Notes: generated from the letters alone by a model not told the origin. DNA of 64,000 nt from Alphaproteobacteria bacterium (GCA_018401675.1 JAGYKM010000002.1:2871-66870); one strand, 5' to 3'; positions 16,804 through 49,125 are shown, numbered from the stretch's first letter. Program-made: numbers and translations.

Positions 16804-17035
16804 CTCTACCTCGCTTATTTGATTATAATTTTTGGAAATATCTCTCTGTTCTTAGAAAAACACTTTTTGAAGCTTACGACAATCCCCTATGTGGTTACGA
16901 ACACCCACCTTTAAGAGACCTCGCCTCCCTTAGTTCGTCCATGATCATAAATGAGGTCCTTGTAAAAAAAAGCCTCTTTTGAAAAAAAGCCACCTATGCA
17001 ATGGTAGGGACGAACTTTTTATAGGAGGTACCTTT

Positions 17036-18558
17036 ATGCAATTTCAATTCTCAAGCGCGGCTCCGAAGATCACTTCAGAGACTCTTGTTGTAGGTGTTTT
17101 TGAAGACTCAGGGCTATCTACTGAGGGAAAAAATCTCAACACATCCATGAAAGAAACTCTTTCTCAAGCCATCTCCAAAAGAGGGTTCAAAGGAAAATTG
17201 GGAAAAACTCTTTCCTTGCTTCATCCCCGCGAGGCAGATGCAGATCAGATCATCCTCATTGGTTTGGGTAAACGCGATGAGTGCTCTCCACATTTATTGA
17301 CAGAAGCCGGTGGATTTTTGTATTCTGCGCTCACCCAAGAAAAAATAGAGACGGCTACTTTTCTTGTGGGAAGTGAATCCTTCAAGACCATCTCTTCTGG
17401 AGAAATTGCGGCTCATGTGGCCCAAGGCCTCTTATTGAAATCTTTCTATTTTGGAAAACACCAAACCAAGAAGGAAACCCCACCTATAAAAGCGTTAGCT
17501 TCTGTGAATTTTTATGTATCTTCTGAAGAAGAAGCTAAAACAGCGCGAATGCTTTTTGATCGGTTAGTGAGCATCTCGGAAGGGGTGTTTTATACCCGTG
17601 CGGTAACTTCTGAGCCCCCTAATATGCATTTAACTCAGAGACCTTTGCTGAGGGATTTGAAAGCTTCTCTTCATTGGGTATCAAGGTTGAAGTTCTTGAT
17701 AAAGCCCAAATGGAAAAACTGGGCATGGGATCTCTTTTAGGAGTGGCCCAGGGAAGTATAATTGATCCCCGCCTGGTCATTATGGAGTGGAATGGTGCGC
17801 TAGATAAAAACACGCCCCCTTTAGCCTTTATCGGAAAAGGCGTCACCTTTGATTCTGGAGGTTTATCCTTAAAATCTGCAGATGGCATGATGTCCATGAA
17901 GTATGATATGGGAGGCGCAGGCATTGTAGCAGGTCTTTTAAAAAGCCTCGCTTTAAGAAAAGCACCCGTCCGCGTGGTAGGCGTAGTCGGTTTGGTAGAA
18001 AATATGCCTTCTGGGTCCGCCCAACGTCCTGGCGATGTAGTCACCTCTATGTCGGGTCAAACCATTGAAGTATTGAACACAGACGCAGAAGGCAGACTTG
18101 TTCTTGCTGATGCCCTTTGGTACACTCAAGACCGCTTTAAACCCAAATTCATGATTGATCTGGCCACGCTTACAGGCGCCATCGTCGTTGCTTTGGGTGA
18201 AGAGTTCGCTGGTCTTTTCTCAAATAGCGATCTGCTCTCTGAACAGCTCATGGAAGCCGGTGCCCAAGTAGATGAAAAGGTATGGCGCTTTCCATTCCAT
18301 AAGAACTTTGATGCCCAGATGAAATCAACTATTGCCGATATGCAAAATATTGGTGGTGGCCGCGAGGCAGGCAGTATCACTGCCGCTATGTTTCTTCAAC
18401 GGTTTGTCAATAATGTTCCCTGGGTGCATCTTGATGTGGCAGGCGTGGTATGGGCTAATAAACAACGAGCTTTGTCTCAAAAAGGCGCTACAGGATATGG
18501 TGTCCGCCTTTTGAACCAATTTATTTCTGATTTTTACGAAGACCCCAAACACTCTTAG
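17036..18558 (+). pseudogene. pepA: leucyl (cytosol) aminopeptidase PepA, carrying a 1-nt frameshift
   Basis: The N-terminal domain is in ORF 16979-17740, with a likely start at 17036 after a GGAGG RBS. The M17 catalytic domain (NTDAEGRL, GGGREAG...) is in ORF 17674-18558. The frames join only if a C is restored at about 17635: observed actcagagacc, expected actccagagacc, giving LTPETFAE. Confidence 0.8.
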
Positions 18559-33373: not shown

Positions 33374-34622
33374 ATGAAAAGAATTAATAACTCGAAAAAG
33401 ACTCACCCTTTTTTTACCTTTTTAATCTTGGCTTTGATGCTTACTGTTCTCCATGCGCCTTCCTGGGCGGTAGTGAGCGATTTGTCTGACGCCTCAAATA
33501 AGCCCACTTCTGTAAGGCACCGGGCAGCATGGAAAAAGCGCTGGAAAGACTTCGAGCCCTTCACGCTGAAAGAGATCACTATTTTGCGTTGTATCCAGCG
33601 CTCTTTATAAAACAAGGTCCTATCCCTTTCGGTAATGATATTACCGTCGCCATTTCTCATATTACAGATGAGGACACTCGAGCATCCGTGGCAGCGCTGG
33701 CTCCTCGCCTTTTTTCAGCCGTCCCAGATGACCGATTTAATGGATCTGACCGATCGAGGATAATTAAGGCTCTTGGGGCGATTTAGGATGAAAAGACCCG
33801 AAGGTCTACTGCAGATTTGGCTCAACAGATCACGATCATCGCTGGTACTATGCATAAAGATGTCGTGATCGAGATCCTTGGAAAGACCCCCGACGAGGCA
33901 ACACGACAATCGGTTGTGACCCTGTCTATAGGCCTTTATACTGCCGATATGAGGACTTCGACCGCCGGCAGATTTTTTCCATATTCTCCCAGATGCCCGA
34001 CGAGGCAACACGACGCTCTGTTTCGGATTTAGCGCCTGCTCTTTTATCCAAATCTGAGGCTCGGTGTCCCTATGAGAAGATTCATATTGTTGAAGCTCTG
34101 AGCGCCATTGAAGATGAGCTAACCCGACGCACTATTGGGGAGCTCACCCTTGAACTCCTGAAGCTCCCTGATCGGGAACGGAGTATACCTGAAATAATGA
34201 GCAGGCTTTTGGCTATTCGCGATGGATCTGTGCGTAAACTGGGTGTGGAATTGCTCCCTGAGCTTTTTACACGCTCTTTGACCGCGGATCTGCATCCAGA
34301 TACCTTGCCTATTATTATCAATTTTCTCTGCCAGGTTCCTGATGAAGCCGAAAGGCATTCTATGATCGGCCCCTTTGCGAACCTATTCAATAACCTTCAC
34401 GAAAGTCGGTTTGTTATGATCATGCAATCTGTTGAAAATTTCAAAGATATATCCACAAAACTGTCGTTTCTCCGCCACGTTTCTTCTCTTAAAGGAAAGT
34501 ATATGAGCGAGCACGACACCTCTACACTTATATCTATCCTTCAGAAATTTCCAGATAGAGACAGTCGAGAATCTTTCGTAAACCAGGTCCTTTGGGACAA
34601 GGCAGGAGCTCTAACCTCATAA
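33374..34622 (+). pseudogene. fragmented gene for a secreted protein with ~36-aa HEAT/PBS-lyase-like repeats
   Basis: Four ORFs in three frames. They comprise a signal-peptide ORF (33374-33610), a frame +1 segment with an in-frame TAG at 33784-33786, and a shift to frame 0 near 33950-33990. The motif (I/L)..xPDEATR.SV..LAP.L recurs, including an exact 19-nt repeat cccgacgaggcaacacgac at 33888 and 33997. Confidence 0.6.
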
Positions 34623-35074: not shown

Positions 35075-37240
35075 GTGACCTGCCTTATGCCTGGCACTTT
35101 AAACACGCAAGAAAATATAAATATTTCCTTAAAAACGCCTTTGGGGGAAAATACCCTCATTTTAGAATCCTTGGAGGGTGAGGAGCATATATCACGCCCC
35201 TTCTCTTTCAGGCTCTCCATGTACGCCCACTCTCCCTCTCTTGACTTAAGTCGTTTGTTGGGAAAAGAAGCCACCGTCACCTTTAAGATTAAAGGGGACG
35301 TTCGATACCTCCATGGGATCATTGGCCAAGTTGCTCAAGGGCCAACGGTAGGACACCCTACTGCTCGAGAATCAGAGCGCACGTTGAAAGGGGCACAAGT
35401 AACTTACTATACAGCCTTTTTATACCCCTCTTTCTGGATAGAACACTTTAACCAAGATTGTCGTATATATCAAAACCAAGATACGCTGAAGATTGTTACA
35501 GAGCTCTTGAAAAAAAATAAAAAAATGCGCATTAAGGATCTTAGCCACCGCTTGGGACGCCAAGTCTTTGAGTACTGTGTGCGCTATAACGAGAGTACTT
35601 TTAATTTCGTCAGCCGGTTATTAGAAACCGCAGGGATTTACTATTTTTTCGAGCAAAAACATGACGAGCATACCCTTATTCTCAGTGATGGGGAATCGGG
35701 ATCAACTTACATTAGTGGACGTGAAATAGTTCCTTATATTCGCGAAAAATTTACCCGTCATATTCCCAATGCGGCCTTTGAGTGCTATTGGACCGAGTCC
35801 ACGGTTCCCGATGCTTTTTCTGCAGGGGACTTTAACTATGAAATACCCCACACCCGCTTGTTCTCAGAATCGAAAGGCCACGGCATTGGGGGAGAAGTGT
35901 ATGAGTATCCGGGAGGGTTCCAGAAGCAATCTATAGCTGAAAAAACCACCCCTTTACGCATTGAAGAAAGAGAATCTTTGCAAAAGATGCTAAGAGGGCA
36001 ATCTACGGTTTCCTCTTTTGCCCCTGGGTATAAATTCAAACTCAGAGGCCATGAACGCAAGGATATTAATACCACTTACATTATCCATTCCGTCCATCAC
36101 GAAGCCAGTTACGAAGAGGAAGAAGGCGGATTTTTATACAAAAATTCTTTTACGGCTTTTCCGGAAAAAACACGGTTCCGCCCGGATCTTAGAACGCCCC
36201 ATCCTAAGATCTATGGCTCTCAAACAGCTATAGTCACTGGAAAGAAAGATGAGGAAATATGGACCGATTCTTACAGTCGGATTAAGGTTAAGTTCCATTG
36301 GGATCGTTATGGTAAGGACGATGAAACCAGTTCCTGTTGGATCCGAGTGTCTACCGCGTGGGCTGGAGCTCACTGGGGGACCTTGTACACGCCTCGCATA
36401 GGCCAAGAAGTGGTGGTTAGTTTTTTAAATGGAGATCCAAATAAACCCTTGGTCACAGGCTCGGTATATAACGGTGTCCATAAACCGCCTTATCGTGCTG
36501 AAGACCCTACTATTGCTACGATGAAATCCAGCACCTCTAAAGGAGGCAAAGGATTTAATGAAATCCGTTTCCAAGACAAAAAGGACCATGAAGAGCTGTA
36601 TGTTCATGCTCAAAAAGATATGGCCATAGACATTATTAACAACAGAACCACCAAGATAGAAAAAGGTAATTGCACCACCACCATTGAAGCGGGAGATCGA
36701 ACGGTAACTTTGACTGGAAAAAAGAAGAAAGATGAAGATCCTGGAGGTCCTAAAAAGAGAGGAAATGATTTCTTAACTTTGGATACGGGAAGTCGCACTG
36801 TCAAACTCTTGGGTAAAGGTTCCGAAGAAGGATCCCATACGATGGATATTGCCAAGGGCAATCACACCTTATCCATTAAAAAGGGAAACGAGATCCGAAC
36901 CCTTACTGAAGGTAATCAGACCATCAAATTGGCCAAAGGCAATCAAACGGTTACTGTGAATGGCTCCCGGACTGAGTCTATTACCAAAGACTATACCTTG
37001 ACTGTTAAAGGCAATCTAATCATTGACGTAACGGGGAATATTACCTTAAAAGCCGGCCAGAATCTATTGGTCAAGGCGGGCCAAAACATCACCATGGACG
37101 CTGGTATGAGCTTTATAGGTAAAGCCGCAACCAATGTTACTTTCTCTGGCGCTGTCATGGCTCTCAAAGCCACAGGGACTGGAATTTATGAAGCCTCGGG
37201 TGTTCTCACTCTTAAAGGTTCTCTTGTAACCATTGTCTAA
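35075..37240 (+). CDS. vgrG: type VI secretion spike protein VgrG
   Basis: 721-aa ORF carrying the gp27-like N-domain, the hallmark gp5 OB-fold motif RIGQEVVVSFLNGDPNKPLVTGSVYNG, and a C-terminal beta-helical repeat region. The likely start is Met at 35087. There is no C-terminal effector extension. Confidence 0.9.
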   Translation: MTCLMPGTLNTQENINISLKTPLGENTLILESLEGEEHISRPFSFRLSMYAHSPSLDLSRLLGKEATVTFKIKGDVRYLHGIIGQVAQGPTVGHPTARESERTLKGAQVTYYTAFLYPSFWIEHFNQDCRIYQNQDTLKIVTELLKKNKKMRIKDLSHRLGRQVFEYCVRYNESTFNFVSRLLETAGIYYFFEQKHDEHTLILSDGESGSTYISGREIVPYIREKFTRHIPNAAFECYWTESTVPDAFSAGDFNYEIPHTRLFSESKGHGIGGEVYEYPGGFQKQSIAEKTTPLRIEERESLQKMLRGQSTVSSFAPGYKFKLRGHERKDINTTYIIHSVHHEASYEEEEGGFLYKNSFTAFPEKTRFRPDLRTPHPKIYGSQTAIVTGKKDEEIWTDSYSRIKVKFHWDRYGKDDETSSCWIRVSTAWAGAHWGTLYTPRIGQEVVVSFLNGDPNKPLVTGSVYNGVHKPPYRAEDPTIATMKSSTSKGGKGFNEIRFQDKKDHEELYVHAQKDMAIDIINNRTTKIEKGNCTTTIEAGDRTVTLTGKKKKDEDPGGPKKRGNDFLTLDTGSRTVKLLGKGSEEGSHTMDIAKGNHTLSIKKGNEIRTLTEGNQTIKLAKGNQTVTVNGSRTESITKDYTLTVKGNLIIDVTGNITLKAGQNLLVKAGQNITMDAGMSFIGKAATNVTFSGAVMALKATGTGIYEASGVLTLKGSLVTIV

Positions 37241-37272: not shown

Positions 37273-40000
37273 ATGACTGATGACACCTTCCCCTTTATCC
37301 TAGTGGATGGATCGGGGTATATTTTTAGAGCTTACTTTGCTCTTCCATCCCTAACGCGACATGATGGAGGCAGCGTAGGTGCGGTTTTTGGTTTTACCAG
37401 CATGCTTCTTAAGCTTCTTGATTCACAAGGGCGCGATGGGTTGGTGGTTATATTTGATGCAGGCCGGAAAACCTTCCGGAATACCATTTATCCAGCTTAT
37501 AAGGAGAATCGCCCCCCACCCCCGGAGGATCTCATTCCTCAATTTCCCTTAACCCGTGTGGCGTGTGAGGCCTTGGGCGTTGAGTGGATTGAAAGTGATG
37601 GATTCGAAGCTGATGATTTAATCGCTTCTTATACTAAAAAAGCCCTCGCGTCGGGCAGAAAAGTGCGCATCATCTCCAGTGACAAGGATTTGATGCAGTT
37701 AATTCAGCCTGGGGTTACCTTTTTTGATCCCATGAAACAAAAAGTCGTCGATGAAGTAGGTGTATTGGAAAAATTTGGTGTGGCTCCGAATCAAGTCTGC
37801 GATGTTTTGTCTTTGATGGGAGACGCAAGTGATAATATACCCGGAGTGCCCGGCATTGGACCGAAAGGAGCCGGTCAGCTCATTCAGCGTTTTGGAAATT
37901 TAGACACTCTGTTAAGTCACATAGACCAAGTGGAGAAACCCTCCCACCGTAAAACTCTAGAAGAACATAAAGATAAAGCGTTGCTGTCTTACCAATTGGT
38001 GTGTCTGGATGCGGATGTTCCCTTGCCTATGCCCTTAAAGGATCTCAAAACCAAGCCTTTAGATATGAATTTATGTTTGTCCTTTTTTAAAGAACAAGGA
38101 TTTTCCTCTCTTATTCCTCGATTAGAAAGATATAGAGCAAAACTGGGGCAAGAAAGCATAACGGCCTCACCTGAAGGTGAGAAATATGCCCCTCAACTGG
38201 AGTGGACTTATGAACCTCTGGCCAACAAAAGTGAACTCGTTGCGGTTGTGGAAAAAGCTTCTAACGCCTCTTATCTCTCTTTGGTACTTGAGGACACCCA
38301 AGATGGGCAAAAAATTGCCTTTTGCTTCGAGGATAAAAATGCCTATAGCGTCCTCTTAACCAGTTCAGGAACGGGGGACCTTTTTACCCCCACTGCAGGA
38401 CAGCTAACTTTTAAAGAAGCTTTGAGCGTTTTAGCGCCCCTGCTCAAAGACAAGAGTCTTATGAAAGTCAGCCAAGACATCAAACAGATCCTTCTGGTTC
38501 TCGCCCCTTATGGCTTTTCCTTAGAACCTTTTCAGGATGTACTTCTTATGGGATACGATGTGTCAGGATGTAAAACTGGACAAACCTTGAGTAGTTTGGT
38601 TGATGACTACTTAGAGCTATCCTACGAGGATAAAAAGACCCTAGGCCTCATAGAGCCCGAATCTACGCCTTCCATGAGCCCAGATAAACGCGATGCCGCT
38701 CAGGCTTATTTGGGTCTTAAGCTGGTTTCTGTTCTTCAAAGTCGCCTCATTAAAGAAAAAGTGTCGAGTATATATGAGTGTATTGATAAGCCCGTTATCC
38801 CGGTTCTTGGAACTATGGAGCGGAAGGGCATACTTGTAAGCGCTGAGCGGCTCAAGCTCTTAGGCAATGAGTTTGGAGAAAAAATGAATTCCTTGGAAAC
38901 CCAAATTTATGCCCAAGCCGGGCATAGTTTTTCTATTGGGTCTCCCAAACAATTAGCGGAAGTTCTCTACAAGGAAATGGGCTTTGAAACGGGGTCTAAA
39001 GGCAAGTCTGGTGACTATAGTACCAAAGCAGATATACTTGAGGCACTGGCCGCCCAAGGGCATATTTTTCCCCAGCTGGTTTTACAGTGGCGCGCTTTGG
39101 CCAAATTAAAAAATACCTATGCCGATGGTCTTCTTGAGTACATCGATCCTACTGATTCTCGTATTCATACCTCAATGTCGTTGACGGCCACGGCCACTGG
39201 AAGGCTTGCTTCTTTTAACCCCAATCTTCAAAATATTCCCATACGTACCGAGGAAGGTATAAAAATTCGCAGTGCCTTTTGCGTTCCGGAAAATCATGTG
39301 CTCCTGTCTCTCGACTATTCTCAAATCGAGTTACGTCTTTTGGCACATATGGCTAATATTCCCTCCCTCATTGACGCTTTTTGGAAGAATCAAGATATTC
39401 ACGCCATTACCGCTGCCCACGTATTTGAGTGCCCACTGGACAAAGTAGATAAGGCCCTAAGACGAAAAGCTAAAATCATCAATTTTGGCATTATATATGG
39501 CATAAGTCCCTTTGGCCTTTCCCAACAACTAGGTATTTCAAGAACCGAGGCAAAAGAACACATAGATAGCTACTTTAAAACCTATCCGGGCATTCAAGAT
39601 TACATGGAAGCTAAAAAGGAGGAGGCGCGCCAAAAAGGATACGTAGAAACCTTATGGGGACGCCGATGCCGTATTACGGATATTCATAGCTCTAACGGAA
39701 TCAAAAGAAGCTTTGCAGAAAGACAAGCCATTAACGCGCCTTTACAAGGCAATCGCTGCGGATATTATTAAAAAAGCAATGATTCAAAGCTATGAATGGG
39801 AAAAGGAGAAACAAACAGCCCCGAGTTTGTTACTTCAAGTTCATGATGAGCTCTTATTCGAGGTTTCTGAAAAAGAGTTTTTAGTTTATGCAAATTCTTT
39901 AAAATCCATCATGGAAGGGGTTATTAAGCTCTCCGTTCCTTTGGTGGTTGACGTTTTCAAAGGAAATAATTGGGGCGCTTTGAGACCAGTAGCCTCTTGA
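37273..40000 (+). pseudogene. polA: DNA polymerase I, frameshifted near the C-terminus
   Basis: The 832-aa ORF holds the 5'-3' exonuclease domain, a degenerate 3'-5' exonuclease domain, and polymerase motifs A and B. The frame breaks at about 39750, inside the conserved INAPLQG|AADIIK region. Motif C (QVHDELLFEV) and the C-terminus are encoded in the overlapping 95-aa ORF 39713-40000. Confidence 0.8.
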
Positions 40001-40102: not shown

Positions 40103-40342
40103 ATGAACTTTTATAGTAGAAAAACAATGATCAAAATACTCTCAACAAGTCTTTGCTTAGCTTTGGCTGCTTTCACCTTGCCTGCTTTTAACGTTAGTGC
40201 GGATAAGTGCCATGGTAAATGTATCTGCGTAACAGGAAAACCATGTCCCGACAAGGACTGTAATTGCACCGAAAAAGGCGTGCAGGTTGCACGTTGTGAC
40301 TGTCTTACTAAAAAAGAAGAGGCTGAAAAAAAAGCCGCTTAA
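40103..40342 (+). CDS. small secreted cysteine-rich protein
   Basis: 79-aa ORF with a signal peptide (likely start at MIKILST). The ~45-aa mature region contains 11 Cys and ends in a K/E-rich tail. Confidence 0.5.
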   Translation: MNFYSRKTMIKILSTSLCLALAAFTLPAFNVSADKCHGKCICVTGKPCPDKDCNCTEKGVQVARCDCLTKKEEAEKKAA

Positions 40343-40601: not shown

Positions 40602-41477
40602 ATGGGGACTCTTCTATGGGGACCGGTTGGCGGAACGGATCTAAAGCCCAAATCAACTTTTTTGATTTCATGTAATTACACCGCCAGTAAGTTTCTGGAC
40701 CTGCTCCATGATGACTTTTCTACAAAATTATTGCAAAAAAATCTCCCAGCCCTAAGCGACGTAATAGTTCCGCACTACCTTATAAAAGAAACATTGAAAA
40801 AGAACGGTATTTTCATTGGAGGTAGACCCAAAGGGAGCTATTGCGCACAAACGGGTTACACCGTGCCTATTATGGTTTTTTTCAACAAGAAAACCTTGAA
40901 GACTGAATCTCTTAATCTGTCAAAAGAAGATCTTCGAGCTATTGTTTTCAGCACCATTTTTCATGAAAATATGCCTATTACCGGACATAATGTGGGCCGT
41001 TATTGGACCATATATACTGGAGCCATAGTCGGATCAACCAAGAAAGGTATTTCGAATTATACGAACATTCCCTATAGCCGTGTCAAACAAACCAGTGAGA
41101 ATCCCAAAGCTTCCTTTGAAAATGCGAACTTCATCCGAGATCTGATTATTGATGATAATGTAGACTTTGTGTTTGTTCCCTATCCTCTCAATAATATGTT
41201 TTTTCATACAGAAGAATCAGATGCAATAGGTATAGCCACCGTTGAAGGCAAGATGCCAAATGACCTAAACTACCCTATTGTAGATTATATACTGTATGTT
41301 TGCGGACAAAACGCAGATAATCAGCTCGTTGACTCGGTAGCTCAAATCCTAAATGACAGAGATATCCAACATAAACTGAAAGAATTTGGGGTTTTCCCCA
41401 TAGAGGATAACCAAAAGGCTCTGGCAGAAAAGTTAGCGCTAGAATGTCCTGATCTTTATGCAAGAAGCGTTTATTAG
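40602..41477 (+). CDS. hypothetical protein (orphan; candidate T6SS-associated cargo)
   Basis: 291-aa ORF in an AT-rich segment between vgrG/polA and tssB. No family was recognised by eye. Confidence 0.45.
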   Translation: MGTLLWGPVGGTDLKPKSTFLISCNYTASKFLDLLHDDFSTKLLQKNLPALSDVIVPHYLIKETLKKNGIFIGGRPKGSYCAQTGYTVPIMVFFNKKTLKTESLNLSKEDLRAIVFSTIFHENMPITGHNVGRYWTIYTGAIVGSTKKGISNYTNIPYSRVKQTSENPKASFENANFIRDLIIDDNVDFVFVPYPLNNMFFHTEESDAIGIATVEGKMPNDLNYPIVDYILYVCGQNADNQLVDSVAQILNDRDIQHKLKEFGVFPIEDNQKALAEKLALECPDLYARSVY

Positions 41478-41647: not shown

Positions 41648-41721
41648 TGGAGCGGGCGAGGGGAATCGAACCCCCGTCGTAAGCTTGGGAAGCTTCTGCT
41701 CTACCATTGAGCTACGCCCGC
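41648..41721 (-). tRNA. tRNA-Gly (anticodon CCC)
   Basis: The reverse complement reads GCGGGCGTAGCTCAATGGTAGAGCAGAAGCTTCCCAAGCTTACGACGGGGGTTCGATTCCCCTCGCCCGCTCCA. It is near-identical to E. coli tRNA-Gly(CCC), with anticodon loop TTCCCAA. Confidence 0.9.
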
Positions 41722-41738
41722 TATTTTTCTAAAGATGG

Positions 41739-41814
41739 TGGTGTCCCCAACGGGATTCGAACCCGTGTTGCCGCCTTGAAAGGGCAGTGTCCTAGGCCTC
41801 TAGACGATGGGGAC
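41739..41814 (-). tRNA. tRNA-Glu (anticodon TTC)
   Basis: The reverse complement reads GTCCCCATCGTCTAGAGGCCTAGGACACTGCCCTTTCAAGGCGGCAACACGGGTTCGAATCCCGTTGGGGACACCA. It resembles E. coli tRNA-Glu, with anticodon loop CTTTCAA. Confidence 0.9.
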
Positions 41815-42324
41815 AATAGCGAAATTTCTAGCGTGAACCTTTCATAAAAGCAAGTGTTTTCTCCTCACTTCCACTCTTTGAGCCTTGGGTTTTAGTTCGG
41901 TGCAAATAATTTTGCCAAAATCAAACCCATCTATAGATGTACAAAATAAGAGAGGTCGCAAACATCTTTATTTATTTTAACGTAATCTACGGCCAGGAGT
42001 TGCTCCCAGTAAGGTGCCCCATCTCCCGTAGACTTAAGTAGTTACCTTCTTATGATCTCAATTATATAGGTGAAATTAACAACATATATTCGCTCTTTTC
42101 AAAAAAATAGTTTTGATTTTAGCTTAATGTTTTCAAATGTCTACAAGAAGTTACTGGCAGTTTTCTCTGTTCTTTTCTGTCTACTTTGGCTTCCGCAAAC
42201 AAAATTTACTTAAATCATCTTGATTTATTTCCAAAATAGGTAGATCATAAGATAAATAGTGAATGAGGGGCTAATAGTCCCCCTAAACAAAAACAATAAA
42301 CACGAATAAAAACTGGGAGCTGCC

Positions 42325-42903
42325 ATGAGTGAAAGTATCCAACATCTTCTTGAAAAGATTCGTCCCCCTCGCGTCCAAATTACTTATGACGTGGAAATAG
42401 GTGATGCAATCATAATGAAACAATTGCCATTTACCGTTGGTGTACTGGCAGACTTGGCAGGGGTTCCGGATCCTAATTCTCCTCCTGTACCGCTCAAAGA
42501 TAGACAATTCGATTCTATTGATCGGAGCACTTTTGATGTGATTATGGGCAAAATTGGTCCACGTTTACCACTTCAAGTGCAAAACGTGATGACGCCTAAT
42601 GGAGGGCCTTTAGAGGTGCTTTTGAATTTCAAAAGCATGGAAGATTTCAATCCAATTAACGTGGCAAGACAAGTACCAGAAGTCGCTCAAGTGCTTCAAG
42701 CCAGAGAACTTCTTGCCAACTTGCTCACCAAGCTTGTAGGAAATCAACCTCTTGAAACCCTTCTTGAGTCTGTTTTGGCCACCCCTGATTTACCAAAAAG
42801 CCTTTTGGCCCAAGCTCAAGCAGCAATCAAAAAGAGCCAACAAGCTCCTGCTAAAGCTGACGCGAAACCAGGTCAAACACCACCTGCACCCTCTTCAAAA
42901 TAA
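42325..42903 (+). CDS. tssB: type VI secretion sheath small subunit TssB (VipA)
   Basis: 192-aa ORF. PRVQITYDVEIGDAI..KQLPFTVGVLADLAG...PL.DR.F..IDR..FD is a strong match to the TssB/DUF770 consensus. Confidence 0.9.
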   Translation: MSESIQHLLEKIRPPRVQITYDVEIGDAIIMKQLPFTVGVLADLAGVPDPNSPPVPLKDRQFDSIDRSTFDVIMGKIGPRLPLQVQNVMTPNGGPLEVLLNFKSMEDFNPINVARQVPEVAQVLQARELLANLLTKLVGNQPLETLLESVLATPDLPKSLLAQAQAAIKKSQQAPAKADAKPGQTPPAPSSK

Positions 42904-42940
42904 TAATCAAAATACATAATACGTTCAGAGGAGTAATACA

Positions 42941-44404
42941 ATGGCTGATCCAACCGCAACCCCCACAGGTACGAGCGACCTTTTAACGCAATTCGTTACG
43001 ACTGGAAATCTCGCCAGAGATCCCGCTCAAATTCAATATGCTTATCAAATGCTGCAAGAGTTTGCTAACCAAGTATTGACCCAAACTGATGCAACTCCTA
43101 AGAATCCGGCAGCTTTTCTCTCAGCTCAAATTGCTCGACTTGATGGCATTTTATCAGATCAGCTGAATGAGATTATCCATCAGCCCGCTTTCTTAAAGCT
43201 TGAGGGCTCATGGAGAGGTCTTAATTACCTCGTGATGAACACCTTTACAGGCACCGAATTGAAAATCAAGTTGCTTAATGTGAGCAAAACTGATCTTTTG
43301 AATGACTTAGAAAATGCGGTTGAGTTCGACCAAAGTCAACTATTCAAAAAAGTTTACGAAGCGGAATACGGCACTTTGGGTGGCGAACCCTATTCTTGCC
43401 TCATTGGTGACTATGAATTTGGTCCTTTGCCGCAAGATATGTCCTTACTATCAAAGATTGCGGGCGTGGCTTCTGCAGCTTTTGCTCCCTTCTTTGCCGC
43501 AGCCAGTCCTACCATGTTCAATCTAACCACCTACATGGATCTGGGTGTCCCTATGGACTTAGCGCAGATTTTTGAAAACGTGGACTACATTCAATGGAAC
43601 GCCTTTCGTGAAACCGACGAATCTCGCTATGTGGTGCTCACGCTCCCACGTGTCTTGATGAGGCTTCCGTATGGCCCGAATACTGTCCCTGTAAAAGGCA
43701 TCAATTTCATCGAAAAAGTAAACGCTGATGATAATGCTGATTTTTGTTGGGGCAATACTGCCTATACCATGGGTCAGCGGATTACCAATGCGTTCTTCCT
43801 TTACAACTGGACCGCAGCTATTCGCGGTGTGGATGGTGGTGGATTGGTGGAAAATCTACCTGTCTATACCTATCAAACCACCGAAGGAGATATGGCCGTT
43901 AAATGTCCCACAGAGATTGCCATAACTGACCGGAGAGAGTTTGAATTGAGTAACCTTGGCTTTATCGCCCTATGTTATTGCAAAGGCACCAATACGGCGG
44001 CCTTCTTTGGAGCGCAAACAACTCAAAAACCAGTTGTTTACAACACCAATGAAGCCAATGCCAATGCCAACCTCTCTGCACGCATTACCTACATGATGGC
44101 AGCTTGCCGATTTGCTCATTATATCAAATGTATGATGCGAGATAAAATTGGTACCTTTATGACTCACGGGAATGTACAAGACTATCTTCAAACCTGGATT
44201 GCGAATTATGTGTTGCTCAATGACAATGCGCCTGAATCACTCAAAGCAGCTTACCCCTTGAGAGAAGCTCGGGTAGATGTGGTAAGTGTGCCCAGTGACC
44301 CAGGTAAATATAAAGCAACGGTTTTTCTAAGGCCTCATTTCCAATTAGAAGAACTACAAGCCTCCTTGCGGTTGGTAGCAACGCTACCCCCACCAGCAGG
44401 CTAA
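42941..44404 (+). CDS. tssC: type VI secretion sheath large subunit TssC (VipB)
   Basis: 487-aa ORF immediately after tssB. Conserved TssC blocks (FLKLEGSWRGLNYLV, ..PRVLMRLPYG, GN..Y) are present. Confidence 0.9.
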   Translation: MADPTATPTGTSDLLTQFVTTGNLARDPAQIQYAYQMLQEFANQVLTQTDATPKNPAAFLSAQIARLDGILSDQLNEIIHQPAFLKLEGSWRGLNYLVMNTFTGTELKIKLLNVSKTDLLNDLENAVEFDQSQLFKKVYEAEYGTLGGEPYSCLIGDYEFGPLPQDMSLLSKIAGVASAAFAPFFAAASPTMFNLTTYMDLGVPMDLAQIFENVDYIQWNAFRETDESRYVVLTLPRVLMRLPYGPNTVPVKGINFIEKVNADDNADFCWGNTAYTMGQRITNAFFLYNWTAAIRGVDGGGLVENLPVYTYQTTEGDMAVKCPTEIAITDRREFELSNLGFIALCYCKGTNTAAFFGAQTTQKPVVYNTNEANANANLSARITYMMAACRFAHYIKCMMRDKIGTFMTHGNVQDYLQTWIANYVLLNDNAPESLKAAYPLREARVDVVSVPSDPGKYKATVFLRPHFQLEELQASLRLVATLPPPAG

Positions 44405-44529
44405 GCGGTTAGATCTTGGAGCCTTAGGAGAGGAGGTGTCGTCAATGACCTCCCCTCCTAGACTCCCCCTACAAAAAGAAAAATAGAAGGTACATAGTGC
44501 CTAAGTGATACTTTGGGAGACATAAAACA

Positions 44530-45063
44530 ATGATAGATAGCTTTGGAAGAGACGTCGGAACCATTGATAATAATATTATTGTGGTAGGAGCGTGCTCAAA
44601 AAATTCTTTACTTAAGGGAAGTACCACCTACAAAGGATATAAAGATCACTTTAGGCTACGTGGATTCCCTACCGTATCCGTCCTCAACCCTTTCAGGCCT
44701 ACGAGAGAGCAAGCCCGTATTCTGACCAACCCTGTTATTATGCCTATTACTCTGGAAGTGGTTATCGGTAGTTCTGTTCCTTACGCTTTTCAAGCGCTTT
44801 GTGACGGAAGTAATCTTGGAACCATGACCTTAACTGAACTCATCTCCGATGGGAATAACCTTCAACCGCTTCGTACTTTAAAGCTTGAAAATACCTATGT
44901 GACCTTCTGGAAGCTTCTAGGCGGCAGAGATGGCGGAATTTGTCAATTCACTGTAACCTTCGATGTCATGACTCAAACACGTGCCTCTGTCTCTCAAACA
45001 CAAAAGAAACAGGGTAAGACGGCAGCTACAACCAATCAATCCACAGGACAGCCTAAATCCTAA
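44530..45063 (+). CDS. divergent Hcp-like (TssD) tube protein, paralog 1
   Basis: 177-aa ORF after tssC. Its central and C-terminal blocks (ITLEVVIGSSVPYAFQALCDGSNLGTMTLTEL ... TLKLENTYVTFWKL..GG.DGGICQFTVTFDV) align by eye to Hcp blocks (DKSSPNLMLAC..GKH...A.LT ... L.I.L..VLVSSVS......E.V.LNF..V). Confidence 0.55.
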   Translation: MIDSFGRDVGTIDNNIIVVGACSKNSLLKGSTTYKGYKDHFRLRGFPTVSVLNPFRPTREQARILTNPVIMPITLEVVIGSSVPYAFQALCDGSNLGTMTLTELISDGNNLQPLRTLKLENTYVTFWKLLGGRDGGICQFTVTFDVMTQTRASVSQTQKKQGKTAATTNQSTGQPKS

Positions 45064-45121
45064 TAAAACCACATAAAGCCACCGACATCAAAACCTAACG
45101 ACCCAAGAAAGGGCTACAATA

Positions 45122-45742
45122 ATGACAAAAACAACCCCCTTTTCCCCACTATATGCAACTCAGCATTTCGAGCAGTCTGGGTTTACCCATAGCGATGAAG
45201 ATAACTTCAGAGCTCTATTGGAGTCTCTCATAGCCTTAGAAACCGCAAACCTTGGCGAGGCTACCAACGAATCCGCTTCTATTCTTGTAACGATTAAACA
45301 GATTCCAGGAACCGCTAAGGCTGGAAAAATATCCAAAGCCATCGAAGCCTACGGATACTATATTGCTGGACGTAAAAAATCCGTAGTGGGTGAAAATGGC
45401 CAACTCCTCTCTTCTGGCCATGTGGTTTTATGGGATTTGTGTATTATTTTTCCAGATAATTCTTTTGTCGAATCTGCCATCCAGGAAACCTTTACGGGAA
45501 AAAACGTAGGGGACGTAAAGCTGGCTTACCTTAGAAATGATGGAAAAACTGCACAACCTGCCTTTGAGATTGATCTCTCAAATGCGAGAATATCAGCCTT
45601 GAGAGAAACTGAAACTGGTACATCAATGAGTTTTGGGTTTGATTCTATTAAAATTACCTACTTCCCAGTAGGTGACAAGGGCGCAGCCTCAGGAAAAGTG
45701 GCTGCTGGATTTGATCTCAGCAAAAACGCGCAGAAGAAATAG
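45122..45742 (+). CDS. divergent Hcp-like (TssD) tube protein, paralog 2
   Basis: 206-aa ORF. ESAIQETFTGKNVGDVKLAYLR ... AFEIDLSNARISAL...SMSFGFDSIKITYFPVGDKGA matches the Hcp C-terminal pattern. Confidence 0.55.
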   Translation: MTKTTPFSPLYATQHFEQSGFTHSDEDNFRALLESLIALETANLGEATNESASILVTIKQIPGTAKAGKISKAIEAYGYYIAGRKKSVVGENGQLLSSGHVVLWDLCIIFPDNSFVESAIQETFTGKNVGDVKLAYLRNDGKTAQPAFEIDLSNARISALRETETGTSMSFGFDSIKITYFPVGDKGAASGKVAAGFDLSKNAQKK

Positions 45743-45775
45743 TGCATAGACACTGGCGTTAGTAATTTAAGGAGA

Positions 45776-46306
45776 GTGCTTATGGGAGATCTCGTGCCTA
45801 TAGACTCTCCTTTTCTGCCTGACGATTCTCCCCTTTCGGGAGATTGGACATCCTTGGGAGGAAGCGTTCCTCTTTTTGATTTGCTCACCACCCAGCTCTC
45901 CACCTCCAGCAAAACACCCGCAGCCTCTCGTGTCTTCTCAAAAGAAGAGTTGCGTGCCTCTATCATCTATGAAATCCAACTCCTTCTGAACGCACGGGTT
46001 AAAATTCCCCTTGCCCTTTATACGCAAATTCTTGAAACAAATCATACAACTGGTTTTCCTGAACTATACGGGATTCCTGATTTTTCAGCTTTTGATGCTT
46101 CGGATATGGGTACATGGGCCCTCTATGCAGATTATATAAAAAATGCCATCATCACTTATGAACCTCGATTGATAAATGTGGATGTAACTTTCGAGAAATT
46201 TGAAGCCTCGTCCCAAGTTATCTTAGCGTATTTAAGTGGAGACGTGATTTACCAGTCCATGATTGAGCCTTTCTCGTTTTCTGTCAAAATATCTAAATCT
46301 TCCTAA
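45776..46306 (+). CDS. tssE: type VI secretion baseplate protein TssE (gp25-like)
   Basis: 176-aa ORF. LFDLLT......EL..SI..E.QLLLNAR....LALY .. I..YEPRL is the GPW/gp25 signature. Confidence 0.8.
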   Translation: MLMGDLVPIDSPFLPDDSPLSGDWTSLGGSVPLFDLLTTQLSTSSKTPAASRVFSKEELRASIIYEIQLLLNARVKIPLALYTQILETNHTTGFPELYGIPDFSAFDASDMGTWALYADYIKNAIITYEPRLINVDVTFEKFEASSQVILAYLSGDVIYQSMIEPFSFSVKISKSS

Positions 46307-46315
46307 AGGGCCTTT

Positions 46316-48127
46316 ATGCAAAATAAACTTTTTGATCTCCTGACTTACTATGAAAAGGAGATGGCATATCTAAAAAATATGGGATCGCAATTCTCCTCCC
46401 AGTACCCCAAAGTTGCCCAGCGCCTTACCTTGGGAGAAGGAGACGTGTCAGATCCTCATGTAGAGAGGCTCATCCAGTCCTTTGCCTTTCTGACTGCCTT
46501 TTTACAACAAGACATTCACAATGAGTTTCCGCGGATTGCGAATGCCCTTCTTACGAATATCTATCCTCAATTTAATCATCCCATTCCTCCCACTTCCGTA
46601 GCTCAATTTCAAGTAGATCCCAAACAAGGGAAACTCACTTCAGGCTTTACTGTTGCAAAAGATAAACCTTTATTTGCGCGGTCTGAATCTGGAGTAACCT
46701 GTAAGTTTCATACCGGCTATGATGTGGAACTATGGCCTATCCAAATAGAGGACATATCCATTGACCTCACCCGTAATTATTCGTTTAACCAGTTTTTCTC
46801 CCCTCACTCTCACTGTTTAAAAATCCGCTTATCCACATTTGCAGATTCTTTTTCTGAGTTAACCCTCGATGCCCTTCAGTTTTATATCAATGGACATAGA
46901 ACCACTCAAAGTGCCCTTTATGAAGGCATCATTGCGCCTGATCTCCCCTGTGCCGTAGCCTTAGACTTATCTACCGAAGCGCAAATAATCCCTAAGATGG
47001 TCCCTCGGCCGGATGGCTTCTCTGAGAACGAAACCATTTTCCACATGCCATCCCAAGCCCATCCTGCATATACTTTACTGCTTGAATATTTCTTCTGCCC
47101 GGATAAATTCTTTTTCTTTACTCTCGAGGGATTTAAGCAACTTGCTCCCGCCAAAACCATAGATATTCTAGTCCCCATTTCCAATCCTGATACTTTGCTC
47201 AAACTGGGCGTTGATACTTCCTCTTTGTTATTAGGGTGTACTCCTATAATCAATTTATTTAAAAAAATATCAGATCCAATCCAAGTTTCCCATCTTCAAA
47301 GCGAATATAATCTGATTCCCGATCAACGCTTAGAGATGGTTACAGAGATCTATTCGGTGCTTTCAGTATCGGGGATTGAAGCAGGTCAGGTCACTCCAAG
47401 AACCTTAACCCCCTATTTTGCCTTTGATCAGAAGGCACAAGCTACTGAACAAAAGGCCTTTTGGATCTCAAGACGAACCCCCACCGTCCGCCCTGGCTTG
47501 CCTGGCACAGACATATTAGTATCCTTTGTGGATTTTAATTTTGATCCCACCGTTCCCCAGACGGAAACCATTTATGCCGAAATCCTATGTACCAATAGAA
47601 TTCTTGCATCTCAACTTCCCGCAGGCGCTATTCTCGAAGTAGACGATACGATCCCCACTACCCAGATTACTTGTTTGAAAATTCCCTCGTCTCCTAAATA
47701 CCCTCCTGAAGGTGGAGCCACTTTATGGAGCCTAGTTTCTCAACTTTCTTTAAATCAGATTTCATTGTCGAACTCTCCAGGAAGCTTAGAAGCGTTCAAA
47801 AGCTTGATGCGCGTTTACGCTCAATTCGGATCCCCTTCCGACTCACCTGAGGTGGAATCCTTGGTAAAAATGTCCTGCGACTATACCGTGCAGCGCATGG
47901 GAACAGACGCCTGGCGGAATTTTATACGGGGCATATCCATAACCCTTACTTTTGATGAAAGATATACAGGCGGGACCTCAATCTTTCTTTTTGCAAGCAT
48001 TCTGAACCAATTTTTTGGGCTTTATGTCTCTTTAAACTCTTTTACTAAACTCTCCATCCAAAAGTATAACCAGGAAGGAATCTGGAAGGAATGGGCACCT
48101 ATCGCCGGGGGTCAACCCCTCCTGTAG
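46316..48127 (+). CDS. tssF: type VI secretion baseplate protein TssF
   Basis: 603-aa ORF. The N-terminus (YYEKEMAYLKN.G..F...YP.VA.RL.L...D..DP.VERL..SFAFL) matches TssF/ImpG. Confidence 0.85.
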   Translation: MQNKLFDLLTYYEKEMAYLKNMGSQFSSQYPKVAQRLTLGEGDVSDPHVERLIQSFAFLTAFLQQDIHNEFPRIANALLTNIYPQFNHPIPPTSVAQFQVDPKQGKLTSGFTVAKDKPLFARSESGVTCKFHTGYDVELWPIQIEDISIDLTRNYSFNQFFSPHSHCLKIRLSTFADSFSELTLDALQFYINGHRTTQSALYEGIIAPDLPCAVALDLSTEAQIIPKMVPRPDGFSENETIFHMPSQAHPAYTLLLEYFFCPDKFFFFTLEGFKQLAPAKTIDILVPISNPDTLLKLGVDTSSLLLGCTPIINLFKKISDPIQVSHLQSEYNLIPDQRLEMVTEIYSVLSVSGIEAGQVTPRTLTPYFAFDQKAQATEQKAFWISRRTPTVRPGLPGTDILVSFVDFNFDPTVPQTETIYAEILCTNRILASQLPAGAILEVDDTIPTTQITCLKIPSSPKYPPEGGATLWSLVSQLSLNQISLSNSPGSLEAFKSLMRVYAQFGSPSDSPEVESLVKMSCDYTVQRMGTDAWRNFIRGISITLTFDERYTGGTSIFLFASILNQFFGLYVSLNSFTKLSIQKYNQEGIWKEWAPIAGGQPLL

Positions 48128-49125
48128 CCGAGCTCTTATTTCTGAAAACTTCAGAATTTCAATTTGTTCAAGCTGTCAGGATTTTACAAAAACTGCGTCC
48201 GAATAGTGCTCCTTTGGGGGAATCATCACTCCCCAACGATGATCCGGTGATTTTTAAATCCCATGTCTCTTTTGCGTTTAAAAGTAGTGATCTTTATACA
48301 CTCACCCAAAACGCTTCCGGCCCCCCTCACTTAAGCATAAATTTTATGGGGATTGCAGGAAACTCTGGCCCCCTCCCCACACCCTATGTCCAAACACTGA
48401 TCAATCGCTCTAATCAGTTTGATAATGCTTTTAGAGACTTTCTGGATATTTTCAATCACCGCTTGATCTCTCTTTTGTATGTTATCAGAAAAAAATACCG
48501 GCTGGGCATCGACGAAATACCCGCAGAAGAAACTTCAGTAGGGGCCATTCTTAAGGCCCTCATTGGATTAGGTTTTAGAAATTCGGCCTTTACGCAAAGT
48601 TTCCCAATTCCGGTAAAAAGCCTTCTTAATTTTGCAGGATTATATTGGCCCATCCAACGCGCCTCAGTGGGCTTAGTTAAAATCCTTAAAACTTATTTTA
48701 ATGTGCCCGTTTCTATTCAGCAATTCACAGGAGAATGGCTGCAAATTCCCCTCGGTCAACAGTCCCGTCTCTCGGCCACCGGCCCGTTTAATCAGCTAGG
48801 CAAAAATCTTACTCTAGGATCACGATGTTGGGATAAAACCACCTCTTTTACCCTTTGCCTAGGCCCTCTCTCCTTAGAACAATTTACGTCTTTTCTTCCC
48901 ATTGGCCCTTATTGCAAAAACTTATGTGCCCTTACTTCCTTTTACTCCCGTCCCGATAAAGCCTTTAATGTGCAACTCACCATCGCTCCTGACGAAGTGC
49001 CTTCGTTAATATTAGGGACTAAATCCTATCTAGGTTGGAAAACTTGGCTTAAAACCCAACCCTTTGGACCCAACCCAGGCATGGTTTTCCTCTCTCAAGA
49101 GCGCCTTCCTCTCTTAGGGGCCTAA
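48091..49125 (+). CDS. tssG: type VI secretion baseplate protein TssG
   Basis: 344-aa ORF overlapping the tssF end. The N-terminal F.FVQAVRILQ motif matches TssG/ImpH. Confidence 0.8.
   Translation: MGTYRRGSTPPVAELLFLKTSEFQFVQAVRILQKLRPNSAPLGESSLPNDDPVIFKSHVSFAFKSSDLYTLTQNASGPPHLSINFMGIAGNSGPLPTPYVQTLINRSNQFDNAFRDFLDIFNHRLISLLYVIRKKYRLGIDEIPAEETSVGAILKALIGLGFRNSAFTQSFPIPVKSLLNFAGLYWPIQRASVGLVKILKTYFNVPVSIQQFTGEWLQIPLGQQSRLSATGPFNQLGKNLTLGSRCWDKTTSFTLCLGPLSLEQFTSFLPIGPYCKNLCALTSFYSRPDKAFNVQLTIAPDEVPSLILGTKSYLGWKTWLKTQPFGPNPGMVFLSQERLPLLGA

What the first reader, a model, noticed from the sequence alone, without database searches (positions are those of the whole stretch)
42325..49125. Compact type VI secretion block tssB-tssC-hcp-hcp-tssE-tssF-tssG lacking all membrane-complex and recycling genes
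The sheath genes (TssB, TssC), two tube candidates, and the baseplate wedge genes (TssE, TssF, TssG) are contiguous and co-directional. The block is flanked on one side by tRNA-Gly/tRNA-Glu and on the other by convergent cvpA-radA. The window contains no tssJ, tssL, tssM, tssK, tssA or clpV. The contractile machinery is therefore encoded without its envelope anchor or its sheath-recycling ATPase nearby. Either the system is split across the genome, or it is a reduced or non-canonical T6SS variant. The latter would be notable in what appears to be an alphaproteobacterial, possibly host-associated, genome.
Basis: partly seen in the sequence, partly recalled or inferred. Interest (0 to 1): 0.75.

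Follow-up and report, generated by a model that had tools for sequence, protein, structure and literature searches.

The report
Partial type VI secretion gene cluster
This is a real, intact operon for the sheath, tube and baseplate wedge of a bacterial type VI secretion "nano-syringe", with its spike gene 5 kb away, in an alphaproteobacterium; it most likely belongs to a system scattered over several genomic sites, as already described for protist endosymbionts, so it is fairly ordinary.

Summary
Seven co-directional genes at 42325-49125 are tssB, tssC, two Hcp-family genes, tssE, tssF and tssG. They lie between tRNA-Gly/tRNA-Glu and convergent cvpA-radA. No tssJ/K/L/M/A or clpV was found anywhere in the 64 kb, using Pfam, NCBIfam, tblastn and clade-specific HMMs.

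The genes are intact, and six of the seven are under purifying selection against a relative that keeps the same order. This order is the conserved right half of contiguous tssK-L-M-A-B-C-hcp-E-F-G clusters found in free-living bacteria of the same T6SS clade.

The sheath is canonical T6SS-i. A PDB sheath entry, 9n4v, is by far its best solved match (658 bits), and TssC groups with Holosporaceae-like symbiont MAGs (bootstrap 73/100).

Published work describes Holosporales T6SS genes as dispersed over four or more loci, with tssK-L-M-A elsewhere, no ClpV listed and no clear TssJ. The best reading is therefore an ordinary split T6SS.

I could not reach the rest of this genome, so the direct test is still open. 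Interest is low to moderate; this is a new member of a known kind.

The parts
42325..42903 (+). tssB (VipA), small sheath subunit, 192 aa
   Evidence: PF05591 150.4 bits; TIGR03358 152.1 bits against a cut-off of 97. Best PDB match is 9n4v_B at 147 bits. dN 0.068 and dS 1.01 against L038.
42941..44404 (+). tssC (VipB), large sheath subunit, 487 aa
   Evidence: PF05943 418 bits plus PF18945 145 bits; TIGR03355 646 bits. Aligns to PDB 9n4v_A over residues 6-486 at 658 bits; P. aeruginosa TssC1 (5n8n) scores 456 bits. 93.6% aa identity to L038, dN 0.042.
44530..45063 (+). hcp paralogue A, tube protein of the Hcp family, 177 aa
   Evidence: PF05638 27.8 bits, above the 23.5 cut-off. Exhaustive HMMER finds a small family of 21 representatives. 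All 19 members scanned hit PF05638. The family profile against canonical Hcp gives hhalign probability 98.1%, E 7e-14. Conserved at the same position in L038 and L039.
45122..45742 (+). hcp paralogue B, 206 aa: Hcp domain at about residues 60-206, plus an N-terminal extension of about 55 aa
   Evidence: PF05638 28.0 bits. hhalign against canonical Hcp gives 92.3%, E 6e-7, over residues 60-204. Only faintly similar to paralogue A. Conserved at the same position in L038, 77% aa identity, dN 0.15.
45776..46306 (+). tssE, gp25-like baseplate wedge protein, 176 aa, GTG start as listed
   Evidence: PF04965 37 bits; TIGR03357 60.1 bits against a cut-off of 53.2.
46316..48127 (+). tssF, baseplate wedge, 603 aa
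   Evidence: PF05947 569.7 bits; TIGR03359 554 bits. 38-42% identical to TssF of complete clusters.
48091..49125 (+). tssG, baseplate wedge, 344 aa; overlaps tssF by 37 nt
   Evidence: PF06996 278 bits; TIGR03347 273 bits.
   Evidence: PF05954 220.6, PF04717 53.3 and PF22178 77.4 bits. 34-37% identical to the VgrG of the complete clusters L015, L016 and L040.
42200..42324 (+). Conserved upstream region of the operon; inferred promoter, 5' leader and GGGAG ribosome-binding site
   Evidence: The last 125 nt before the tssB ATG are 83% identical between the window and L038. Further upstream the two cannot be aligned, and synonymous sites in the coding region are saturated. No Rfam family matches. 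Function is inferred only.

Best explanation
The block is one operon of a canonical (T6SS-i type) type VI secretion system. It encodes the contractile sheath (TssB, TssC), two Hcp-family tube proteins and the baseplate wedge (TssE, TssF, TssG). The VgrG spike is encoded 5 kb upstream, behind polA and two tRNA genes.

The block is the preserved right-hand half of an ancestral contiguous cluster, tssK-tssL-tssM-tssA-tssB-tssC-hcp-tssE-tssF-tssG. The left half has most likely been moved to another place in the genome. That half carries baseplate TssK, the inner-membrane anchor TssL and TssM, and the assembly cap TssA. Such dispersal is already described for Holosporales endosymbionts of protists.

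ClpV, and probably TssJ, are likely absent from the lineage altogether. In that case sheath recycling would fall to a general unfoldase such as ClpB.

Shown: gene identities, intactness, operon-like spacing, purifying selection, conservation of the order in a relative, and absence of the other components from this 64 kb.

Inferred: that tssK-L-M-A exist elsewhere, that the machine fires, and that it acts on a eukaryotic host.
For: - Family assignments are far above curated cut-offs for five genes and above Pfam gathering for both hcp genes. Hcp identity is confirmed by profile-profile comparison.
- Spacing is tight: gaps of 37, 125, 58, 33 and 9 nt and a 37-nt overlap. GC is 0.43-0.44, like the rest of the window, so this is not a recent island.
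- A relative with 68-94% protein identity keeps tssB-tssC-hcpA-hcpB-tssE-tssF in the same order. dN is 0.04-0.24, while dS is about 1 for tssB and too saturated to compute for the other five genes.
- Complete clusters of the same clade show the order K-L-M-A-B-C-hcp-E-F-G: L015 (Acidobacteriaceae), L040, L041 and L043, with TssC 56-59% identical to the window's.
- TssC is sister to Holosporaceae-like MAGs, NJ bootstrap 73/100. In those MAGs tssBC-hcp also stands away from every other T6SS gene.
[quoted passage not shown] It reports them transcribed and lists no ClpV.
- PMC11909080 states that the T6SS is conserved in almost all Holosporineae genomes and is 'probably non-standard'.
Against: - tssK/L/M/A of this organism were not found. 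The source contig (215,756 bp, NCBI) is not indexed and the species is absent from the GTDB representatives.
- Divergent TssM candidates from the protein search all came from high-GC bacteria, 56-70% GC.
- Membership of the organism in Holosporales is not established. LeuS is only 52-59% identical to anything named or unnamed except one Logan relative at 73%.
- The arrangement differs from the published Holosporales pattern. tssEFG is still joined to tssBC-hcp, and no YwqK gene precedes vgrG.
- Several housekeeping genes in the window are split (polA, pepA, an aminopeptidase P-like gene, uvrD), so some gene decay or assembly error exists here.
Confidence: 0.8

Rival explanations
1. The system is truly reduced or non-canonical. 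The lineage has lost TssJ/L/M, and perhaps TssK, TssA and ClpV. It either anchors the contractile apparatus with unrelated proteins, as Bacteroidota do, or uses it as an unanchored cytoplasmic or released injection device.
For: - No membrane-complex, TssK, TssA or ClpV gene lies in 64 kb around the operon.
- The window holds several orphan proteins with no family: 1384 aa, 369 aa, 291 aa and 280 aa.
- The review PMC11909080 calls the Holosporineae T6SS 'probably non-standard'.
- Bacteroidota show that a T6SS can replace the canonical membrane complex with other genes (PMC10781749, abstract as listed).
Against: - The closest complete clusters all carry tssK-L-M-A directly upstream of tssB.
- Published Holosporales genomes keep tssK-L-M-A at a separate locus.
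- The 1384-aa orphan shows no similarity to TssM of this clade.
- TssE/F/G wedges are known to dock through TssK onto TssL and TssM (established T6SS-i architecture, from my own knowledge). Strong purifying selection on the two wedge genes that could be measured, tssE and tssF, fits a complete machine better.
Confidence: 0.08
2. The block is a decaying remnant: a leftover half of a T6SS cluster in a genome undergoing reduction, no longer forming a working machine.
For: Several neighbouring housekeeping genes are interrupted.
- polA has a 1-nt insertion inside the conserved QG-AADIIK motif.
- pepA is split.
- An aminopeptidase P-like gene is split.
- uvrD is in at least two fragments.
- The repeat gene upstream of vgrG is broken into several frames.
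Against: - All eight T6SS genes are full length against their profiles.
- Six of them can be compared with a relative. They show dN well below dS, which is about 1 for tssB and saturated for the rest, and unchanged gene order.
- The 125 nt upstream of tssB are also conserved.
- The interruptions elsewhere could equally be assembly indels.
Confidence: 0.07
3. The block is a horizontally acquired partial T6SS island inserted next to tRNA genes.
For: It abuts tRNA-Gly and tRNA-Glu. A tyrosine recombinase gene is present at 26567-27499. The nearest non-symbiont TssC sequences are from Acidobacteria and other phyla.
Against: - GC content matches the surroundings.
- No repeats or integrase flank the block. 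The recombinase is XerC/D-like and lies 15 kb away.
- A relative with saturated synonymous divergence has the same arrangement, so the locus is old.
Confidence: 0.05

Closest known systems
Dispersed T6SS of Holosporales endosymbionts (Ca. Bodocaedibacter vickermanii, Paracaedibacteraceae, Caedimonadaceae; PMC8163844, PMC11909080)
   Same: - Canonical TssB/C sheath with a divergent Hcp directly after tssC.
- vgrG at a separate site.
- No membrane-complex genes next to the sheath genes.
- No ClpV listed in the published component set.
- Alphaproteobacterial, low-GC (about 41-43%) genome.
- TssC groups with Holosporaceae-like MAGs.
   Different: - Here tssE-tssF-tssG are still fused to tssB-tssC-hcp in the ancestral order, rather than forming a separate [tssG-tssF] locus.
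- There are two very divergent hcp paralogues.
- No YwqK gene precedes vgrG.
- The organism's membership of Holosporales is unproven.
Contiguous T6SS clusters of the same clade in free-living bacteria (L015 Acidobacteriaceae; L040 GCA_046704545; L041; L043 GCA_054920795)
   Same: Identical order tssB-tssC-hcp-tssE-tssF-tssG. TssC is 56-59% identical, TssF 38-42% and VgrG 34-37%.
   Different: - Those clusters carry tssK-tssL-tssM-tssA immediately upstream of tssB.
- vgrG and a PAAR-like DUF4280 gene are adjacent.
- L040 also has clpV.
- In the window the position upstream of tssB is occupied by tRNA genes, and vgrG is separated from the block by polA.
Solved T6SS sheaths: PDB 9n4v (TssB/TssC, organism not given by the tool) and Pseudomonas aeruginosa H1-T6SS TssB1/TssC1 (5n8n)
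   Same: Full-length alignment to 9n4v TssC over residues 6-486, 658 bits. 5n8n scores 456 bits. These score higher than the Myxococcus (5urw) and Vibrio cholerae (5mxn, 3j9g) sheaths and far higher than Francisella IglB (3j9o, 229 bits). The H1 cluster also has the order tssA-B-C-hcp-E-F-G (from my own knowledge).
   Different: No formal subtype (i1-i5) assignment was possible, because no reference set was available.
T6SSs lacking some 'core' parts: Bacteroidota T6SS-iii (non-homologous membrane complex, PMC10781749), Acinetobacter (non-canonical membrane complex, PMC10564176), Francisella T6SS-ii (uses ClpB instead of ClpV; from my own knowledge)
   Same: These are precedents for working T6SSs without TssJ, ClpV or canonical TssJLM. 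They would apply if this lineage lacks those parts.
   Different: The sheath and wedge proteins here are T6SS-i equivalogs, not the ii or iii forms. The only match to the Francisella-type TssF/IglH model is 17 bits against a cut-off of 75.

Membership tests
Canonical T6SS (T6SS-i), 13 core components | TssB/TssC contractile sheath | tested here: met
   TIGR03358 152 bits against 97; TIGR03355 646 bits against 271. TssC matches the solved sheath 9n4v at 658 bits.
Canonical T6SS (T6SS-i), 13 core components | Hcp tube protein | tested here: met
   Both paralogues pass the PF05638 gathering score. hhalign to canonical Hcp gives 98.1% for the A family and 92.3% for B. Structure predictions failed, with pLDDT of 30-36.
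Canonical T6SS (T6SS-i), 13 core components | VgrG spike | tested here: met
   35075-37240: PF05954, PF04717 and PF22178.
Canonical T6SS (T6SS-i), 13 core components | Baseplate wedge TssE, TssF, TssG | tested here: met
   TIGR03357, TIGR03359 and TIGR03347 all score above their cut-offs.
Canonical T6SS (T6SS-i), 13 core components | TssK, TssA and the membrane complex TssJ/TssL/TssM | not testable with these tools
   Absent from the 64-kb window. A TssM search of the protein database recovered only TssM from other, high-GC organisms.
Canonical T6SS (T6SS-i), 13 core components | ClpV sheath-recycling ATPase | not testable with these tools
   None in the window. It is not among the T6SS components that PMC8163844 lists for Ca. 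B. vickermanii.
Holosporales-type dispersed T6SS (PMC8163844) | tssB-tssC-hcp adjacent and separated from tssK-L-M-A | tested here: met
   tssB-tssC-hcp-hcp are contiguous, and tRNA genes rather than tssA lie upstream.
Holosporales-type dispersed T6SS (PMC8163844) | Separate [tssG-tssF] locus | tested here: not met
   tssE-tssF-tssG directly follow hcp in the same operon. The relative L038 shows the same.
Holosporales-type dispersed T6SS (PMC8163844) | [ywqK-vgrG] locus | tested here: inconclusive
   vgrG is at its own site. The upstream 209-aa repeat ORF has no YwqK/MORN or any other Pfam match, even at E up to 1.
Holosporales-type dispersed T6SS (PMC8163844) | Organism and T6SS belong to the Holosporales lineage | tested here: inconclusive
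   TssC is sister to Holosporaceae-like MAGs, bootstrap 73/100. LeuS has no close named relative: 52-54% to Rhodospirillales-like taxa and 57-59% to unnamed MAGs.
T6SS-iv / extracellular contractile injection systems | Phage-type single sheath protein and Afp-like tube and baseplate set | tested here: not met
   The sheath is the two-subunit VipA/VipB type, and the wedge proteins are TssE/F/G equivalogs.
T6SS-ii (Francisella) / T6SS-iii (Bacteroidota) | IglA/B-type sheath and IglH-type TssF, or the Bacteroidota-specific set | tested here: not met
   IglB is the weakest PDB sheath match, 229 bits against 658. The IglH model scores 17 bits against a cut-off of 75.

The most novel reading that the evidence does not exclude
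This little-sampled alphaproteobacterial lineage runs a selected, intact sheath-tube-wedge-spike apparatus with no canonical TssJ/L/M anchor or ClpV anywhere in its genome. It would use unrelated proteins for anchoring, perhaps among the orphan ORFs, and two non-interchangeable Hcp paralogues, one with an N-terminal extension, for distinct roles in the tube.
Probability: 0.07. Interest if true: 0.7.

Novelty: new member of a known kind. Interest (0 to 1): 0.25.

Why it matters
If the split reading is right, the locus adds little mechanistically. It is one more example of T6SS genes scattering in alphaproteobacterial symbiont genomes.

Its modest value is evolutionary. It is an intermediate state: tssBC-hcp-tssEFG is still joined, while vgrG and presumably tssKLMA are detached. 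This lies between the contiguous clusters of free-living bacteria and the four-locus arrangement of Holosporales.

It also shows that a recognisable Hcp is present in this relative, in fact two of them. A review flags Hcp as apparently missing from the Holosporineae T6SS (it names TssD and TssJ).

Only if the whole genome truly lacked TssJLM would it become an interesting case of a T6SS-i with a replaced anchor.

Tried and rejected
**Locating the source genome**
- An exact look-up of TssC found only a 2.3-kb Logan contig. TssF is 'not on record'.
- Cluster look-up shows the source is an NCBI contig of 215,756 bp, but it is not retrievable.
- The GTDB representative scan found no TssC closer than 64% identity.

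**Finding this organism's TssM**
- I queried the protein database with TssM from the closest complete cluster.
- The divergent candidates P0058, P0062, P0063, P0088 and P0091 all lie in 56-70% GC bacteria, within complete or stand-alone clusters. None came from the 215,756-bp contig.

**The 1384-aa orphan ORF (19902-24056, - strand) as a divergent TssM**
- Its length matches the clade's TssM (1340-1400 aa).
- There is no similarity by BLASTP, Pfam, NCBIfam, PDB or the clade HMM. Rejected.

**Structure prediction of the two Hcp-like proteins**
- Mean pLDDT was 30.4 and 36.4, which is unusable, so no fold search was run.
- Profile methods were used instead.

**Synteny around leuS in the nearest LeuS relatives**
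- No T6SS genes were nearby.

**Rfam scan of the conserved leader**
- Only the tRNAs matched.

**Identifying PDB 9n4v from the literature**
- No paper was found.

**Formal i1-i5 subtype assignment**
- Not done, because no reference set was available.
Full report
**Observation**

The region 42325-49125 holds seven co-directional ORFs. Curated profile searches identify them as follows:

| Gene | Coordinates | Evidence |
|---|---|---|
| tssB | 42325-42903 | PF05591 150 bits; TIGR03358 152 vs cut-off 97 |
| tssC | 42941-44404 | PF05943 418 + PF18945 145 bits; TIGR03355 646 vs 271 |
| hcp A | 44530-45063 | PF05638 27.8 vs gathering 23.5 |
| hcp B | 45122-45742 | PF05638 28.0 vs gathering 23.5 |
| tssE | 45776-46306 | TIGR03357 60.1 vs 53.2 |
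| tssF | 46316-48127 | PF05947 570 bits; TIGR03359 554 bits |
| tssG | 48091-49125 | PF06996 278 bits |

The intergenic gaps are 37, 125, 58, 33 and 9 nt, and tssF overlaps tssG by 37 nt, so this looks like a single operon. The consensus promoter and terminator scan found no more sites than in shuffled sequence and is uninformative.

tRNA-Gly and tRNA-Glu lie on the minus strand at 41648-41814. Convergent cvpA and radA begin 13 nt after the tssG stop. GC content of the block (0.43-0.44) matches the window.

A complete vgrG lies at 35075-37240 on the same strand, with PF05954 221 bits, PF04717 and PF22178. It is separated from tssB by 5.1 kb. That stretch carries polA, two orphan ORFs (79 aa and 291 aa) and the two tRNAs. 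The window therefore encodes sheath, tube, wedge and spike.

**Absence of the other components from the window**

I scanned the non-nested ORFs of at least 120 aa with Pfam or NCBIfam. I also scanned 38 small intergenic ORFs.

I ran tblastn with every ORF from the neighbourhoods of complete clusters, and with TssK/L/M/A/ClpV at E up to 1. I built HMMs of TssK, TssL, TssM and TssA from four clusters of the same clade and searched all six reading frames.

Nothing resembling tssJ, K, L, M, A, clpV or a PAAR gene was found.

A 1384-aa orphan ORF (19902-24056, minus strand) has the length of this clade's TssM. It shows no similarity to it or to anything else.

**Are the two hcp calls real?**

The two paralogues are only faintly similar to each other.

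- **Paralogue A.** An exhaustive HMMER search of 1.84 billion representatives found just 21 relatives. All 19 members scanned match PF05638. The family profile aligns to canonical Hcp proteins from complete clusters over 158 columns, with hhalign probability 98.1%.
- **Paralogue B.** It aligns to the same canonical set at 92.3% over residues 60-204. It carries an extra N-terminal segment of about 55 residues.

AlphaFold models of both were unusable, with pLDDT of 30 and 36, so there is no structural confirmation.

**Is the operon alive?**

A Logan contig from another sample (L038, SRR14932693) carries tssB-tssC-hcpA-hcpB-tssE-tssF in the same order. Protein identity is 68-94%. Non-synonymous divergence is 0.04-0.24. 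Synonymous divergence is about 1 for tssB and too saturated to compute for the other five genes. All six comparable genes, including both hcp paralogues, are therefore under purifying selection.

The 125 nt upstream of tssB are 83% identical between the two, whereas sequence further upstream cannot be aligned. This suggests a conserved promoter or leader. No Rfam family matches it.

**Where the block comes from**

The closest TssC sequences in genome representatives are Holosporaceae-like MAGs from termite guts and the rumen, at 59-64% identity. Acidobacteria follow at 58%.

Complete clusters of the same clade have the order tssK-tssL-tssM-tssA-tssB-tssC-hcp-tssE-tssF-tssG. vgrG and a PAAR-like gene lie next to them, and in L040 clpV as well. 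This was seen in:
- L015, Acidobacteriaceae;
- L040, GCA_046704545;
- L041;
- L043, GCA_054920795.

The window's block is therefore exactly the right-hand half of this conserved arrangement. It is cut between tssA and tssB, where the tRNA genes now sit.

In a neighbour-joining tree, the window and L038 are sister to the Holosporaceae-like MAGs, with bootstrap 73/100. In those MAGs tssBC plus one or two hcp-like genes stand alone, with no other T6SS gene within 10 kb.

Among solved structures the sheath aligns over almost its full length to PDB 9n4v (658 bits). P. aeruginosa H1 TssC1 scores 456 bits and Francisella IglB only 229 bits. This is a canonical T6SS-i sheath. I could not assign an i1-i5 subtype.

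**Taxonomy**

LeuS is 73% identical to one Logan protein and 57-59% to unnamed MAGs. It is 52-54% identical to Rhodospirillales-like alphaproteobacteria. DUF3576 and a Tim44-like gene are present. The organism is an alphaproteobacterium of a poorly sampled lineage. Membership of Holosporales is plausible from the TssC tree but not shown.

**Comparison with the literature**

[quoted passage not shown] It reports that they are transcribed. ClpV is not among the components it lists.
- The review PMC11909080 says the T6SS is conserved in almost all Holosporineae. It calls it 'probably non-standard' because two main components, which it names as TssD and TssJ, seem to be missing.
- PMC9992710 calls these systems 'reduced but potentially functional'.

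The present locus differs in detail:
- tssEFG are still attached to tssBC-hcp;
- there are two old hcp paralogues;
- no YwqK gene precedes vgrG.

**Verdict**

The most likely reading (about 0.8) is one piece of an ordinary split T6SS, with tssK-L-M-A elsewhere and ClpV, and possibly TssJ, absent from the lineage.

Three rivals remain:
- a truly anchor-less or re-anchored system, about 0.08;
- a decaying remnant, about 0.07;
- a recently acquired partial island, about 0.05.

The remnant reading is suggested by the split polA, pepA, aminopeptidase P-like and uvrD genes nearby. The intact, selected T6SS genes argue against it.

The direct test is to search the rest of this genome. I could not do this because the source contig is not retrievable with these tools, and the TssM database search recovered only proteins from other organisms.

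Noticed in passing
L002-L006, L008-L010, L012-L014, L017, L028, L031, L035 (e.g. L009 9368-11461; L035 9299-11431); also L047 11188-13569: In all 15 Holosporaceae-like MAG loci checked, tssB and tssC lie in one reading frame with no stop codon between them (ORFs of about 680-720 aa). This is a natural TssB-TssC sheath fusion conserved across that clade. An independent fusion of 793 aa, carrying PF05591, PF05943 and PF18945, occurs in a 70% GC bacterium. The window, L038, L015 and L040 are not fused. A phrase search of the paper library found no mention of such natural fusions.
   Followed up: partly
window 37273-40000 (polA); 16979-18558 (pepA); 9730-11534 (aminopeptidase P-like, - strand); 4008-6197 (uvrD): Four housekeeping genes are split into two or more ORFs. 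In polA, a single extra base inside the conserved QG-AADIIK motif shifts the frame at about 39,750. This is either real pseudogenisation in a reducing genome or assembly indels. The T6SS genes are unaffected.
   Followed up: partly
window 19902-24056 (-): A 1384-aa ORF between ndk and tRNA-Gln has no match in Pfam, NCBIfam or PDB and no similarity to TssM. It is a candidate lineage-specific host-interaction or effector protein.
   Followed up: partly
window 33374-34622 (+): Several short ORFs in different frames lie just upstream of vgrG. They share a repeated '(P)DE(A/D)TR.SV' motif, and the first has a signal-peptide-like start. This looks like one repeat-protein gene broken by frameshifts, sitting where Holosporales have ywqK. 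It has no family match.
   Followed up: no
window 40103-40342 and 40602-41477 (+): Two orphan ORFs lie between polA and the tRNAs that precede the T6SS operon. One is a 79-aa cysteine-rich protein with a signal-peptide-like N-terminus. The other is 291 aa with no family match. They are possible T6SS cargo or unrelated.
   Followed up: no
window 42200-42324: About 125 nt upstream of tssB are 83% identical to the relative L038, although synonymous sites are saturated and the sequence further upstream cannot be aligned. No Rfam match. This is a possible conserved promoter or regulatory leader.
   Followed up: partly
L043 18142-20595; L035 11490-12757; L031; L007: Multiple hcp genes beside the sheath genes recur in this T6SS clade. 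L043 has three (hcp-tssE-hcp-hcp). The rumen MAGs have a duplicated pair that is far more similar than the window's pair, about 97 bits between copies. The window's two paralogues are much older than that duplication.
   Followed up: partly
window small intergenic ORFs (coordinates not resolved individually): A Phd/YefM antitoxin and a YoeB/ParE-type toxin, plus GapR and the L20 and L35 genes, are among the small intergenic ORFs.
   Followed up: no
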